Of a stretch of DNA of 64,000 nucleotides, positions 44,001-50,000 are shown one piece after another. Made by a program: the position numbers and the translations under genes. Source of the stretch: Octopus vulgaris. Its lineage: Eukaryota. The notes under the pieces were generated by a model. The model saw nothing but the letters and a program-made list of their open reading frames with translations, was not told where the DNA came from and searched no databases. Where the stretch lies: positions 27,342,001 to 27,406,000 of the forward strand of contig OX597840.1 of the NCBI GenBank assembly GCA_951406725.2. Direction: 5' to 3'. The stretch's first letter is position 1; each line of letters opens with the position of its first letter.

Positions 44001-47000
44001 ATAAAAAAAGTCTTTTACGTTTCGAGCCTACGCTCTTCTACAGAAAGGGACACAGAAAAAACAAGGAGAGAAACAAAGAGAGAAAAATGTGTGTAGTGGC
44101 TAACGATCTTTATGTAGACGGATAGACAAACTGAGACGAGCAGACGAAAATAGATAGATAGATAGATAGATAGATAGATAGATAGATAGATAGATAGATA
44201 GATAGATAGATAGATAGATAGATAGGCAAAGAGAGATCTAAATAACTTTCTTTATTGACCACACAGGGCTGAACACAGAGGGGACAAATACAAATGTAGA
44301 GCTTTTCGAAGAGAGATCTTGATAGATAGAGGGATGGGTAGATAGACAGAGAAAGAGTGATCTAGATAGACAGATAGATAGATAGATAGATAGATAGATA
44401 TGTTTCTTTATTAGCCACACCGGGCTGCACACAGATAGAACAAATTACAAGGTAGAGCTTTTCTTTTGAAGGGTTAGAAAAAAAAAAAAAAAAAAAAAAA
44501 GGAAGGGGGGAGTTTCGATCAAAAGGGATCGTAAAAGGAGAGAAAGAGGACAAAAAAAAAAAGGGGGGTTAAAAAAAGGGGGGAGGAAAAAAATTGATCA
44601 ATAGGGATCGTTATCACAGAAATGTCAATATGAAGTGTAAAGGGGAGGACAGGTGAGGTTTACCCGTGGAAAGAAAAGCCTACGGAAAAGACCACGGTAA
44701 CCTCGGTCAATGATGTCACATTTTATATTTCTTTTTTTTTTTTTTTGCAAATAAGCAACTCTCTGTTTTCGATTTCTGGGTTCATAGGACTATAGATAGA
44801 TAGATAGATAGATAGATAGATAGATAGATAGATAGATAGATAGATAGATAGATAGATAGATAGATAGATAGATAGATAGAAAGATAGATAGATAGATAGA
44901 TAGATAGATAGATAGATAGATAGATAGATAGATAGATAGATAGATAGATAGATAGATAGATAGATAGATAGATAGATAGATAGATAGATAGATCGATAAA
45001 AAGAGATCTAGATATATAAGAATGGTCATATTCCTTGACCTTTGTTGACCAAAATGCTATTCACGGAGAATTTACCAACAAGAAACATTTGTAGGAAAAG
45101 AACATTTGTTTTCTTAGATGACACACACGGGAATCGATCCCAGAATCACTTAGTTGCGCGGATAGCCTCTTAACCACCCGTCCATGACCATTAGGCCGCG
45201 TTTCGATATATTTAAATTCCCTTCAGACTTTGTTTAACCTCAATCAGCATATCACTAATTCCTAATTAATATTTTAATTAAAAAGGGCCAGAGATTGGGA
45301 GATTCAGTAGAAGTCAATGTTGTTAGCGTATTAGCAGCAGCAGTAGTAGTGGCAGCAGCAGTAGTAGCGGCAGTAGTAGTGGTAGTAGTCGCTATGGTGA
45401 CGGCCATGGTGGTGATGGAGGGAGTGGAGACGGGTTTTCTAATGGTTTAAGTAGTTGTTCAATAATGATGGTGGTGGTGGTGGTGCTGGTGGAGGTGATG
45501 GAGGTGATGGTGGTAGTGATGGTGGTGGAGGTGATGGTGGTGATGGTGATGGAGGTGGAGGTGATGGTGGTAGTGATGGTGATGGTGGTGATGGTGATGG
45601 TGATGGTGATGGTAGTGGAGGTGATGGTGGTAGTGATGGTGATGGTGGTGGAGGTGATGGTGGTAGTGATGGTGATGGTGGTGGAGGTGATGGTGATGGT
45701 GATGGTGATGGTAGTGGATGTGCTGATGCTGGTGGTGATGGTGGTTGTGGTGGTGGTGACAGTGGTGGCGATGGTGATGGTACTGGTGGTGGTGGTGTTG
45801 GTGGTGTTGGTTGTTGTTGTTGTTGTTGTTGTTGTTGTTAAGCAACAAGATGGGTAAGGGTGATTAGGTGATGGTCTAGGGCTTAGGGGACGGGAGACCC
45901 CAGACCTGAGAAAAACAAAAAAAACTTTGGTCGTCTTGTTGTAGTCGAGGGCTCTTCGTTGACATGGTTCCAGGTTCAGTCCCACTGCATGGCACCTTGG
46001 GCAAGTGTCTTCTACTATAGCCTCGGGCCGACCAAAGCCTTGTGAGTGGATTTGGTAGACGGAAACTGAAAGAAGCCCGTCGTATATATGTATATATATA
46101 TATATATGTGTGTGCGTGTTTGTGTGTCTGTGTTTGTCCCCCCCAACATCGCTTGACAACCGATGCTGGTGTGTTTACGTCCCCGTACCTTAGCGGTTCG
46201 GCAAAAGAGACCGATAGAATAAGTACTAGTCTTACAAAGAATAAGTCCCCGGGGTCGATTTGCTCGACTAAAAGGTGGTGCTCCAGCATGGCCACAGTCA
46301 AATGACTGAAACAAGTAAAAGAGTAAATAGGTGAGAGAGTTGGATGCATAAAAAACCAAAAAAAAAGTGAAAAAGAGTTTCTAACACAACGACTTGAATA
46401 TATTCTTTAACCAGAAAACAAGCCTTCTGCAGTTTTTTTATTCTTTTTTGATTTATATATATATATACATATATATATATATATATATATATATATATAT
46501 ATATATATATATATATATATATATATATATATATATATATATATATATATATATATATATATATATATATATATATATATATATATATATATATATATAT
46601 ATATATATATATATATATATATATATATATATATATATATATATATATATATATATATATATATATATATATATATATATATATATATATATATATATAT
46701 ATATATATATATATATATATATATATATATATATATATATATATATATATATATATATATATATATATATATATATATATATATATATATATATATATAT
46801 ATATATATATATATATATATATGTGTATATATATATATATATATATATATATATGTGTATATATATATATGTGTGTATATATATATATATATATATATAT
46901 ATGTGTGTATATATATATATATATATATATATATATAATGGTTGTATACTGTCAGTAGGGTGACAGTAGGGGTACAGAAGGTGACAGTAGGGGGTACACC

Positions 47001-50000
47001 ACCGTTGTATAGCCCTAGGAGGCATCGAACGCCTCCTGACAGCTTCGACACATTTTATCCTGTGTCCTTATATACACATACGAAGGGGAGACAAACACCC
47101 CCAACCGCCGGAACTGCATCTAGGGACACCGTGTTTCAGGATCATTGTCCTTCATCGGCCTAGAGTAGCAGACACCGGTCAGCTGGCGATATCTGTCTCG
47201 ACTTCGTATCTGTATATATCTATAGTCAGTGAAGTCTATTCACTGATTATCAAAATAAGAAATATTGAGTTTCTAAATCTCTCGTAGAGAGGTGTACGGT
47301 GGTGGAGCGATATAATGGTTGTATACTGTCAATCGAATAAATAAATGGAGTTTAACGCAGGTGTAATCAAATATTTTTACTTTCGACACATGTTTCGAAA
47401 ATTCCACTGATACTATTCAAAAGAATAAATGGTATAAACAATGCAATCTTCTCCTCAAGAAAGTGATAAAAACGAAACTCGTCAATAAGACATTTTAGCA
47501 AAAAATTGTGGATTTGTATAGCGATTGACAGAACGCTATTAATATATATATATATATATATATATATATATATATATATATATATATATATATATATATA
47601 TATATATATCTGCCTCCACTTATACATTATTCTCTTTACCGTAGCTCTATATAGATGTGTGTGTGTGTGTAGATTTGGTAGGCGGAAACTGTGGAAACCT
47701 GTTGTATATTTAATATATATATATGTGTATGTATATGTATGCGTGTATGTGTGTGTGTGTACGTGTGTGTGTGTATGAATGTGTGTATCTTTATCATTGT
47801 GTTTGTCCACCACCGCCGCATGTAAGTCATTCAAAAGACACGTCGGTGCAGTAAACTTTAATCAAAACGTTTATTCTTCGGTGTCAAAACAGTCGTCGCG
47901 CCACCTGCCACCTGGTCACTGACGCGGAAAATTTATGATACCAAATATACTAAATGCTTGAACAGAATTAACAGTCTGTGTGCATTTGAACGGCTAATAC
48001 GAGACCTATACACTGTAATAGTTTGCGCAAACCCATACATACATAAATGCATACATACATACTTACATACACACATACATACATACATAAATAGATACAT
48101 ACATCCAAACATACATACATACATGCACACATACATATATACATACATACATACATACATGCATACATACATAAATAAATACCTACATAATACATACACA
48201 CATACATACATACATACATACATACATGCATGCATACATACATACATACATACATACATACATACATACATACACACATACATACATACATACATACATA
48301 CATACATACATACATACATACATACACACATACATACATAAATACATGCATACATACTTATAAACATGCATACATTCATACATACATACATACATGCATG
48401 CATACATACACACATAAATACATACATACATACATACATACATACATTCATACATACATACATACATACATACATATATATATATATATATATATATATA
48501 TATATATATATATATATATATATATATATATATATATATAAACATGTGTGTGTGTGTGTGTGTCTGCTAGTATGTATTTGTCTAACAATATATCTTTCAG
48601 CAATTTACATCGGTAGAAGACCTGAACTCGGTCGAAAAACCCCAAAAATTCGGTTCTACGAATGAAACTATTGCGTTCTGTTTGTTCTTTGGTGAATAGC
48701 ACAGACAACGGTTTGTCAATCTCGCCGATAGGAATGCACTGCGTGAACCGGTGACAGGTTAAATTGGATAAGACAGTGATCAACGACGCCATTGTCGTGT
48801 TTAGAATATCCATACATCTATGAATAGACAGACGGGCAGACGGACTGATGGATATATAGATAGATAGATAGATAGATAGATAGATAGATAGATAGATAGA
48901 TAGATAGATAGATAGATAGATAGATAGATAGATAGATAGATAGATAGATGTGAGTGAGTGAGTGAGTGAAGAGACGAAAGACATTAGTCTTCAATACATT
49001 TTGTAAAAGTTACATATATTCTTAATAATAGTTCGACTCAGATGAACATGATTTAAAGCTTTGTGTGAGCGTAGGAGGCATCCATCTCATACATCTATTC
49101 TTAGTGTCTGATCAGATGTCTTTCGCGTCCATCAAAGTGTAAGCCATGTGGAGCTCAGTCACACTGATACACACATACACACACACACACACACACACAC
49201 ACACACACACACACATATATATATATATATATATATATATATATATATATATATATATATATATTTAGTGAGGGAAGAAATGGAGGTGTTTGTAAAATCT
49301 TCGTTCAGCTCCATTTCTTCCCTCACTAAATATATAAAACTTCAAATTTCCGCACTAAGGCACGGTTTTGAGACCCCATGGTCGTAACCTCAACCGTGAT
49401 TTTTCTGTTGTGATTTTTGCAACCCAGGTATCGGTTATAATTTGAATAATTCCGTAACAAGATAATTCATTTATCCATTTCAATAAATAAATATATATAT
49501 ATATATATATAGGATGAATGTAAAAAAACACAAACTGGGACAAGAACGCAAAACATTTAGAAGACGATGCAAAAAAAAACGGACGGGACATTCGAAACCT
49601 TCAATCTTCAGTCAAAAACCGGATCATCTTCGCAATTTCGGCTGATTAAGTTTGAGATTGCTCCGACCTGACCAGTCCCAAAGGAAAATCTAAGCCATAT
49701 ATCTCTCTCTATATAAACGGCAGTTTGACTGTGCGTTTTCTGTGTGTCTGTTTTCTCGTACCCTCACTCTGACCACGGCTTTCAACCGATTCTGATGAAA
49801 CTTGACACACACATAGCCCAATGTCATAATTCAAAACTAACGCAGCGAAAATTTTGAAAAGTTCCCCCAGTTCTGAAAAAAATCGATAAATTCGACATGG
49901 GGGTCGAGAATCAGAAACCCAAACCACAGACCGTCTAGGGGACGCAACTCCACCTTTTTTAACTCTCAAAAAAAAATTTACCATAATTTTTTTTCCATTT

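What the first reader, a model, noticed from the sequence alone, without database searches (positions are those of the whole stretch)
46933..47331. Retrozyme-like 377-bp unit: fully paired hammerhead ribozyme between 22-bp direct repeats, attached to a (TA)n tract
Seen: the minus strand of 47120-47163 folds as a type-I hammerhead (stem I CUAGG/CCUAG, core CCGAUGA, stem II AGGA/UCCU, GAAA, short stem III, GUC cleavage triplet). It lies in a non-coding unit bounded by an exact 22-nt direct repeat that also has a 7-bp hairpin (aggaggc/gcctcct, about 47017-47037). Known: animal retrozymes and Penelope pseudo-LTRs are few-hundred-nt non-autonomous retroelements with type-I hammerheads, and some give circular RNAs. 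Inference: this is a monomer-plus-overlap copy of such an RNA, possibly an undescribed cephalopod family; the core has U4C.
Basis: partly seen in the sequence, partly recalled or inferred. Interest (0 to 1): 0.8.

Follow-up and report, generated by a model that had tools for sequence, protein, structure and literature searches.

The report
Hammerhead retrozyme fused to Penelope-type end
A non-coding repeat of about 365 bases, present in very many copies and joined head-to-tail, carries a hammerhead motif predicted to cut its own RNA, so it is likely a retrozyme (a known kind of small parasitic retroelement); here it is joined without a gap to a second high-copy repeat with its own hammerhead motif, likely a Penelope-type retrotransposon end, which would be a trace of the enzyme thought to copy such elements.

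Summary
Observation confirmed, reading mostly right. The minus strand has a type-I hammerhead (core 47158-47152, cut site after 47125) at the tip of a long hairpin (fold z -9.6). It was the only descriptor hit in 64 kb, with hits in 0 of 100 shuffles. Public runs under three species labels hold the family at very high depth. Contigs run from the unit's end back to its start (period 364-365 nt), so the 22-bp repeat is an internal overlap, not a target-site duplication. The 377 spacing belongs to this copy only (local duplication at 46955-46975). C4 looks fixed in the family; a common one-base deletion makes helix III an exact palindrome, which points to dimer cleavage. The two repeats meet with no TA between them. 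Verdict: new member of the animal non-LTR retrozymes. Cleavage, circular RNA, long tandem arrays, two-sided covariation and the partner's reading frame were not shown. The seamless junction may record Penelope-type machinery copying a retrozyme.

The parts
46454..46937 (.). (TA)n tract at the 3' end (RNA sense) of the insertion; likely target and primer site; overlaps the element's terminal ATAT
   Evidence: TRF, 242 copies of TA; sequence
46933..46954 (-). Terminal 22-nt overlap: repeat of 47310-47331, the part of a second monomer pass where reverse transcription likely began
   Evidence: D8; one search shows the same 22-mer is internal to the family unit
46955..46975 (-). Copy-specific 21-nt local duplication of the neighbouring hairpin arm; it replaces the family's 8-nt linker and stretches the period from 364 to 377
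   Evidence: one search prints both stretches; TRF 11-nt x 3.7 at 46953-46992; 3 of 32 listed contig pieces start exactly at 46976 and depth falls left of it
46976..47334 (-). Unit A: near-complete retrozyme monomer (359 of 364 nt), non-coding, 46% GC, branched fold
   Evidence: fold -146.9 kcal/mol, z -9.8; longest M-started frame in 46933-47334 is 34 aa; joints 47334->46976 (+5 nt) and 47329->46995 (+30 nt)
47069..47218 (-). Long hairpin that extends hammerhead helix I; 6 G-U pairs, no A-C opposition
   Evidence: family variants keep the pair at 6 of 10 paired sites in 47060-47235 (null mean 2.0, P 0.001)
47119..47164 (-). Hammerhead 1 (type I, helix I 6 bp, helix II 4 bp, near-palindromic helix III; departures U4C and A10.1-U11.1); predicted cut after 47125
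   Evidence: no Rfam match
47017..47037 (-).
   Evidence: pair list
47310..47331 (-). Second copy of the 22-mer, in its normal place in the monomer
   Evidence: loose ends behind 47332 in 22, 22, 6 and 3 contigs of X1, X2, X5, X3
47335..47541 (-). Unit B: separate high-copy 207-nt repeat, 30% GC, likely the 5'-truncated 3' end (pseudo-LTR) of a Penelope-like element; its end at 47335 abuts (TA)n in other copies
   Evidence: tables 2, 5c, 7; no open frame across it
47379..47464 (-). Hammerhead 2 (minimal type I: helix I 6 bp, helix II 7 bp closed by G10.1-C11.1, palindromic helix III); this copy has U3, the family C3; predicted cut after 47385
   Evidence: RF00163, 21.4 bits, E 0.0029, gathering 34; C3 in 99.8-100% of depth in 4 of 4 runs
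47542..47609 (.). (TA)n tract at the other side of the composite insertion
   Evidence: TRF, 34 copies of AT

Best explanation
46933-47334 is about 1.1 copies of a high-copy, head-to-tail 364-365-nt non-coding repeat with a type-I hammerhead motif, likely an animal non-LTR retrozyme whose RNA is predicted to cut itself best as a dimer, would circularise, and was likely reverse-transcribed into a (TA)n tract by Penelope-type machinery. Steps: (1) shown: high copy number, end-to-start joints, hammerhead geometry, strand-biased fold; (2) inferred from known retrozymes: read-through transcription of multimers, cleavage after GUC, ligation to a circle; (3) inferred: a nick in (TA)n primes reverse transcription at the AUAU that ends an AC-rich single strand just 3' of the linker hairpin, the enzyme stutters on that hairpin (46955-46975) and copies more than one unit, giving the 22-nt overlap; (4) inferred: the join to unit B, a likely Penelope pseudo-LTR fragment, arose by template jump or by the endonuclease homing to an existing B end.
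For: Single descriptor hit in 64 kb, 0 of 100 shuffles. Minus-strand fold z -9.6 against -5.5 for the plus strand; 6 G-U pairs and no A-C opposition in the long hairpin; family variants keep the pair at 6 of 10 paired sites, null mean 2.0, P 0.001. 20 of 24 listed runs from 8 studies and three organism labels hold the stretch; 1977, 2368, 134 and 213 contigs were laid in the 4 runs tried, at summed depths near 10^5 in X1 and X2 where most listed pieces have depth 22-97. End-to-start joints give periods of 364 and 365, with two linker types that keep the same hairpin stem (tables 5, 5c, 7). No variant is listed in the hammerhead 1 core or helices I-II among 40 of 46 rows shown; a one-base deletion at 47129 that makes helix III an exact palindrome has 14.7, 0.1, 32.0 and 25.6% of depth. 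Two-molecule fold with free cores and swapped helix III is -52.9 kcal/mol, against -50.2 for two blocked monomers; the active monomer costs 5.4 kcal/mol. Size, GC below 50%, 6-bp/4-bp helices and palindromic helix III match published animal retrozymes (PMC7229834; PMC4209133). Penelope-type proteins nick AT-rich DNA and start copying inside an AC-rich stem-loop (PMC11167929); Naiad and Neptune elements favour microsatellites (PMC8557442).
Against: No Rfam hammerhead match to hammerhead 1. It departs from the consensus at U4C, which considerably lowers activity in vitro (PMC3088659), and has A-U instead of G10.1-C11.1. The core is predicted to be mispaired in the monomer, and the unconstrained two-molecule fold (-55.8) keeps that block. 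No two-sided compensatory pair was found among 26 variant rows; 6 of 13 paired-site variants break a pair, and the variants are unphased. Each end-to-start joint rests on one listed X1 row, plus loose ends; short contigs cannot tell long arrays from scattered permuted copies. In Xenopus 8 of 9 predicted retrozyme dimers did not cleave in vitro (bioRxiv 2026.07.22.740005). No reverse-transcriptase frame was linked to either unit.
Confidence: 0.72

Rival explanations
1. Unit A is itself the pseudo-LTR or a deletion derivative of an autonomous Penelope-like element; the end-to-start joints are partial tandems of truncated copies made from linear RNA, with no circular stage.
For: Penelope-like elements insert as partial tandems with hammerheads in their pseudo-LTRs; 24 of 57 Xenopus retrozyme families resembled known repeats, mostly Penelope pseudo-LTRs; the copy sits in (TA)n next to a Penelope-type end.
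Against: Loose ends behind 47332 return to the unit's own start rather than into a reading frame in all 4 runs; hammerhead 1 has canonical 6/4-bp helices and an extended helix I, not the minimal pseudo-LTR form; the whole unit is strongly self-paired.
Confidence: 0.14
2. The family is a retrozyme relic whose ribozyme no longer cuts (U4C, A10.1-U11.1, self-blocked core); it spreads as a passive Penelope-dependent SINE-like or satellite-like repeat and the fold is kept for recognition by the enzyme.
For: Core departures and predicted block; hammerhead cleavage was not needed for insertion by the anole Penelope-like protein in vitro; an earlier scan note describes a similar TA-targeting tandem unit with no ribozyme (e1-7810660, unchecked).
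Against: All other core positions appear invariant among the variants shown; the palindromic helix III variant is common; unit B's hammerhead also carries C4 in 36-76% of depth with C3 fixed, so C4 recurs in two families here; a U4C viroid variant stays active enough in vivo.
Confidence: 0.1
3. Unit A is a DNA-level hairpin repeat (MITE or fold-back element) and the hammerhead is a chance match.
For: The plus strand also folds better than shuffles (z -5.5); no Rfam hit.
Against: 0 of 100 window shuffles give a hammerhead; G-U over A-C bias on one strand; no terminal inverted repeats at the family ends; head-to-tail joints.
Confidence: 0.04

Closest known systems
Animal non-LTR retrozymes (Cervera and de la Pena 2020, PMC7229834: coral 220-240 nt, mussel about 350-390 nt, axolotl 330/350 nt; results and discussion read; supplement not readable)
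   Same: Few-hundred-nt non-coding head-to-tail unit, GC below 50%, no tRNA gene in the window, strongly self-paired, type-I hammerhead with 6-bp helix I, 4-bp helix II and weak palindromic helix III; size equals the mussel range.
   Different: C4 and A10.1-U11.1 in the core; core predicted to be self-blocked in the monomer, whereas most published animal circles leave it free (mussel is their exception); inserted in (TA)n with no visible target-site duplication; joined to a Penelope-type end. Circles and cleavage untested.
Retrozymes as non-autonomous derivatives of Penelope-like elements (Li, Clavereau and Pollet 2026, bioRxiv 10.64898/2026.07.22.740005; parts 1-3 of 5 read)
   Same: Solo monomers are common; co-occurrence with Penelope-like elements; length range fits.
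   Different: In the parts read, the evidence is co-occurrence and pseudo-LTR homology in 35 mostly vertebrate genomes, no mollusc. Here A and B show no homology beyond chance (longest shared word 10 nt; 355 of 3000 shuffles reach it) but are physically joined.
Minimal hammerheads of Penelope-like pseudo-LTRs (Cervera and de la Pena 2014, PMC4209133; results and discussion read)
   Same: Unit B: long helix II (7 bp), G10.1-C11.1, palindromic helix III, near a 3' end, high copy, truncated.
   Different: Helix I is 6 bp rather than 4-5; no extra base between positions 9 and 10.1; no reading frame was retrieved.
Anole Poseidon element PAc (Frangieh et al. 2024, PMC11167929; main text read) and (TA)n-targeting Naiad/Neptune clades (Craig et al. 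2021, PMC8557442; passages)
   Same: AT-rich target, start of copying inside an AC-rich stretch downstream of the hammerhead, tandem and partial-tandem insertions, protein-assisted ribozyme.
   Different: PAc starts without homology to the cut DNA, while unit A ends in ATAT that could pair with the target. Naiads lack canonical hammerheads and are described as remnants in cephalopods, so a Neptune- or Poseidon-type partner is likelier (inference).

Membership tests
Animal non-LTR retrozyme | Type-I hammerhead with conserved core and canonical helix sizes | tested here: met
   met with two departures (U4C, A10.1-U11.1); Rfam did not score it
Animal non-LTR retrozyme | Unit of about 150-450 nt, non-coding, GC below 50% | tested here: met
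   364-365 nt; 46% GC, longest M-started frame 34 aa
Animal non-LTR retrozyme | Multi-copy, head-to-tail organisation | tested here: met
   end-to-start joints and loose ends in 4 of 4 runs
Animal non-LTR retrozyme | Loci with two or more complete hammerhead-bearing units in tandem | tested here: inconclusive
   window has 1.1 units; the 32 listed contig pieces are 203 nt or less on the stretch; no genome held
Animal non-LTR retrozyme | Highly self-paired monomer | tested here: met
   z -9.8; 63% of bases paired as a 377-nt circle
Animal non-LTR retrozyme | Loop I-loop II tertiary contacts | tested here: inconclusive
   UAC/U internal loop and CAAUGA hexaloop are in the right places; likeness to the Schistosoma contacts is recalled, not from a call
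Animal non-LTR retrozyme | Self-cleavage in vitro | not testable with these tools
   needs a transcription assay
Animal non-LTR retrozyme | Accumulates as circular RNA | not testable with these tools
   only contigs were laid; a circle closed at the cut site leaves no joint
Penelope-like element pseudo-LTR (unit B) | Minimal type-I hammerhead near the 3' end | tested here: met
   predicted cut 50 nt from the end at 47335
Penelope-like element pseudo-LTR (unit B) | High copy, 3' end attached to AT-rich or (TA)n target | tested here: met
   joints from the TA tract to 47335-47369 in 6 of the 12 rows shown in table 5c and a (AT)n loose end in X2
Penelope-like element pseudo-LTR (unit B) | Joined in full copies to an RT plus GIY-YIG reading frame | not testable with these tools
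   no genome held; 0 matches in metagenome contigs; B has no open frame
Plant-type LTR retrozyme | Type-III hammerhead in about 350-bp LTRs with PBS, PPT and 4-bp TSD | tested here: not met
   type-I topology, 22-nt overlap only

The most novel reading that the evidence does not exclude
The locus is a single-event chimera: a Penelope-type reverse transcriptase primed at (TA)n on a retrozyme RNA, copied it more than once around (1.1 units, as on a circle), then jumped to the 3' end of its own element's RNA (unit B). It would be a physical fossil that names the autonomous partner of an animal retrozyme. In addition both families would share a C4 hammerhead core, with unit A's core self-blocked as a monomer and released as a dimer.
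Probability: 0.35. Interest if true: 0.62.

Novelty: new member of a known kind. Interest (0 to 1): 0.42.

Why it matters
Retrozymes are known from many animals, including a mollusc, so the family itself adds a host lineage (no cephalopod report turned up) and an odd core. The part of wider use is the junction. Which autonomous element mobilises animal retrozymes is argued, in the papers read, from co-occurrence and pseudo-LTR similarity. A retrozyme and a Penelope-type end that share a (TA)n target and meet with no spacer give a direct, countable genomic signature, and name a candidate enzyme for an in vitro test. The predicted monomer block also offers a testable answer to how such circles avoid cutting themselves.

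Tried and rejected
No whole genome is held, so copies could not be listed or aligned in phase. Rfam: nothing at gathering score in the window; no hammerhead for 46900-47450 or 47095-47190 at E up to 10. No second copy of A in the window apart from the 22-mer, and none of 47332-47540. Exact-pattern scans found 0 matches: hammerhead 1 in metagenome and viral contigs, unit B in metagenome contigs. No tRNA gene in the window. 181 stop-to-stop frames of 100 aa or more were listed but not searched against protein families, so a nearby broken RT gene is not excluded. Expression: no RNA holder is on record; run X3 is RNA only by guess, its A:B depth ratio (0.78) is like that of X1, X2 and X5 (0.38, 0.70, 0.76), and contigs cannot show level or circularity, so it is not used as evidence either way. 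The 22-mer as a target-site duplication: rejected. 377 nt as the monomer: rejected. Homology of A and B: not supported. Copy number: depth ratios of about 900-3500 suggest thousands, but the tool warns that summed depth is no copy number. My first indexing of hammerhead 2 was off by one and was corrected; the inverted-repeat check was off by two and was corrected. The relaxed descriptor was set after I had seen hammerhead 2, so its shuffle rates (0-1 of 100 windows; 1-3 of 20000 shuffles of B) are optimistic; the Rfam match is independent of it but was on a 116-nt stretch chosen by me. Literature: 'hammerhead ribozyme'+'octopus' (4 listed), 'retrozyme'+'cephalopod' (1), 'octopus'+'ribozyme'+'circular RNA'+'repeat' (3), 'Penelope'+'retrozyme'+'template switch' (3) showed, by listing, no report of this family or of such a chimera; 'A10.1'+'U11.1' gave 0. 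The supplement of PMC7229834, which shows more invertebrate examples, could not be read, nor were Repbase, Dfam or the consensus library of PMC13282606 (parts 1-2 of 3 read) available, so the family may be catalogued there as a SINE or unknown repeat.
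Full report
Observation. The exact 22-nt repeat is at 46933-46954 and 47310-47331; 0 of 5000 shuffles of the stretch have an exact repeat of 16 nt or more. The minus strand holds a type-I hammerhead: helix I of 6 bp (47164-47159 with 47119-47124), core CCGAUGA (47158-47152), helix II AGGA/UCCU closed by CAAUGA, GAAA, a 9-nt near-palindromic helix III segment, and GUC with the cut predicted after 47125. 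A descriptor found it as the only hit on both strands of the window, and 0 of 100 dinucleotide shuffles of the window gave a hit. Rfam does not score it. Beyond a UAC/U internal loop helix I continues as a long hairpin (47218-47069). The 399-nt stretch folds at -157.4 kcal/mol (z -9.6) on the minus strand and -144.6 (z -5.5) on the plus strand. The hairpin has 6 G-U pairs and no A-C opposition, as expected if pairing is selected in an RNA of that strand.

Family. No genome is held, so I used public runs. 20 of 24 listed runs, from 8 studies and three coded organism labels, hold the stretch. I laid 4 of them on 46921-47545: 1977, 2368, 134 and 213 contigs fitted, with summed depth near 10^5 in the two large DNA runs, where most listed pieces have depth 22-97. 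That suggests thousands of copies (ratios 900-3500), with the tool's warning that summed depth is not a copy number. One of these runs may be the source of the window. Other copies do not continue as the window does after 47332-47334. Loose ends in 22, 22, 6 and 3 contigs carry a linker that ends in the letters of 46995-46997; an X1 contig joins 47329 back to 46995 across 30 letters (period 365); another row joins 47334 to 46976 across 5 letters (period 364), and an X3 contig shows the same 5 letters followed by four of 46976 onward. Both linker types keep the hairpin stem and change its loop. So the unit is head-to-tail or circularly permuted, and the 22-mer is internal family sequence, not a target-site duplication. 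The spacing of 377 is special to this copy: 46955-46975 is a 21-nt duplication of the neighbouring arm in place of an 8-nt linker, and 3 of 32 listed pieces begin exactly at 46976. Short contigs cannot show whether long tandem arrays exist.

Variation. One search shows 40 of 46 substitution rows; 26 lie in unit A. Against the predicted fold 13 fall on unpaired bases, 7 keep the pair and 6 break it; none is a two-sided change. Within 47060-47235, 6 of 10 paired-site variants keep the pair (five G-U to Watson-Crick, one A-U to G-U) against a null mean of 2.0 (P 0.001). This supports the hairpin but is not covariation, and the variants are unphased. No shown row touches the core or helices I-II of hammerhead 1, so C4 and A10.1-U11.1 look fixed in the family. 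A one-base deletion at 47129 (14.7, 0.1, 32.0 and 25.6% of depth) turns helix III into an exact palindrome, the form described for animal hammerheads that work as dimers (PMC4209133). In the window's copy C3-C4-G5 is predicted to pair with loop III; the active monomer costs 5.4 kcal/mol, two molecules with swapped helix III and free cores reach -52.9 against -50.2 for two blocked monomers, but the unconstrained pair (-55.8) keeps the block. U4C lowers activity in vitro yet allows viroid infectivity (PMC3088659, passage). Activity is therefore plausible, weak or dimer-dependent, and untested.

High depth continues from 47335 to the next TA tract at 47542. This unit B is a separate repeat: in 6 of 12 rows shown in table 5c the TA tract joins directly to 47335-47369, an X2 loose end before 47352 is (AT)n, listed A pieces stop at 47334, listed B pieces start at 47336-47337, and none of the 32 listed pieces (4723 more not shown) crosses the junction. 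B carries a second hammerhead on the same strand: helix I 6 bp, helix II 7 bp closed by G-C, palindromic helix III, cut predicted after 47385. Rfam Hammerhead_1 matches it at 21.4 bits, E 0.0029, below the gathering score of 34. The window's copy has U3, while 99.8-100% of depth has C3 in all 4 runs and 36-76% has C4. With a relaxed descriptor these two are the only hammerheads in the window. Long helix II, G10.1-C11.1, palindromic helix III, position near a 3' end and attachment to (TA)n fit the pseudo-LTR of a Penelope-like element (PMC4209133; PMC8557442). No reading frame was retrieved, so this is an inference, about 75% by my estimate. A and B share no sequence beyond chance.

Mechanism. 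In RNA sense the locus reads (TA)n, truncated B, A for 1.1 units, (TA)n. I infer target-primed reverse transcription from a nick in the left tract, starting at the AUAU that ends an AC-rich single strand beside the linker hairpin. This resembles the internal start in an AC-rich stem-loop found for the anole element PAc, though PAc needs no homology to the target (PMC11167929). The enzyme stuttered on the hairpin and copied more than one unit, which needs a circle or a multimer as template. The join to B has no TA spacer. The window has 67 (TA)8+ tracts in 64 kb, so if both families chose tracts at random a shared tract should be uncommon and a seamless join rarer; this is a rough argument from uncertain copy numbers and one locus. 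A template jump to B's 3' end, homing of the endonuclease to an existing B end (PAc cuts in its own pseudo-LTR), or a recurrent composite subfamily would each explain it and each ties A to B's machinery. Two independent insertions followed by loss of the spacer remain possible.

Comparison and membership. It works like, and on the features testable here belongs to, the animal non-LTR retrozymes (PMC7229834): size in the mussel range, GC 46%, non-coding, self-paired, type-I hammerhead, head-to-tail. Cleavage, circles and multi-unit loci were not tested or are inconclusive. That Penelope-like elements mobilise them is proposed in print from co-occurrence and pseudo-LTR similarity (PMC7761336 passages; bioRxiv 2026.07.22.740005, where 8 of 9 tested dimers did not cleave). 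Listings showed no cephalopod retrozyme and no retrozyme-Penelope chimera; the supplement of PMC7229834 and the repeat libraries could not be seen and may hold the family. Earlier scan notes held no look-alike sequence; e1-6787993 and e1-7810660 are unchecked parallels and not support.

Verdict. Real feature; new member of a known kind. Interest 0.42, carried by the fixed variant core with a predicted monomer block and by the junction with a likely Penelope end. The boldest reading not excluded, a single-event chimera that names the mobilising partner, has probability about 0.35 and would deserve about 0.62.

Noticed in passing
window 47326-47335 and 47522-47531: A perfect 10-bp inverted repeat brackets unit B: its left arm is the last 9 nt of unit A plus B's first base. 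The 9-mer occurred in 66 of 50000 shuffles of B, but any 9-nt word shared between A and B is common (1173 of 3000). It might have let the new DNA fold back and end copying near 47541.
   Followed up: partly
window 47044-47056 and 47382-47394: Unit A holds a 12-of-13 match to the helix III and cut-site segment of unit B's hammerhead (D10); no core lies upstream of it, and a shared 10-mer arises in 355 of 3000 shuffles.
   Followed up: partly
window 46942-46962: Depth here is 37774 (X1) and 27767 (X2), far above single pieces, although only 2 contigs per run fit two places. This hints that many loci end at the same (TA)n junction, that is a fixed start site of reverse transcription; the contigs themselves were not listed.
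   Followed up: no
window 47125 and 47385: The two predicted cut sites are 260 nt apart on one strand, so a read-through RNA could release a 260-nt hybrid piece; hammerhead 2 of this copy has U3 and is probably weak.
   Followed up: no
window 45962-46340 and 1168-1540, 20831-21161, 29493-29857, 32381-32743, 43114-43478, 53823-54191 and others: An abundant SINE-like family of about 370 nt, about 90% alike, with 18 other blastn hits in the window; recalled as an octopus SINE, not tested.
   Followed up: no
window 23794-25116; 33561-33914; 34486-34856: A 16-nt minisatellite in 83 copies and two tandem dimers of 176 and 182 nt; no hammerhead descriptor hit in them.
   Followed up: partly
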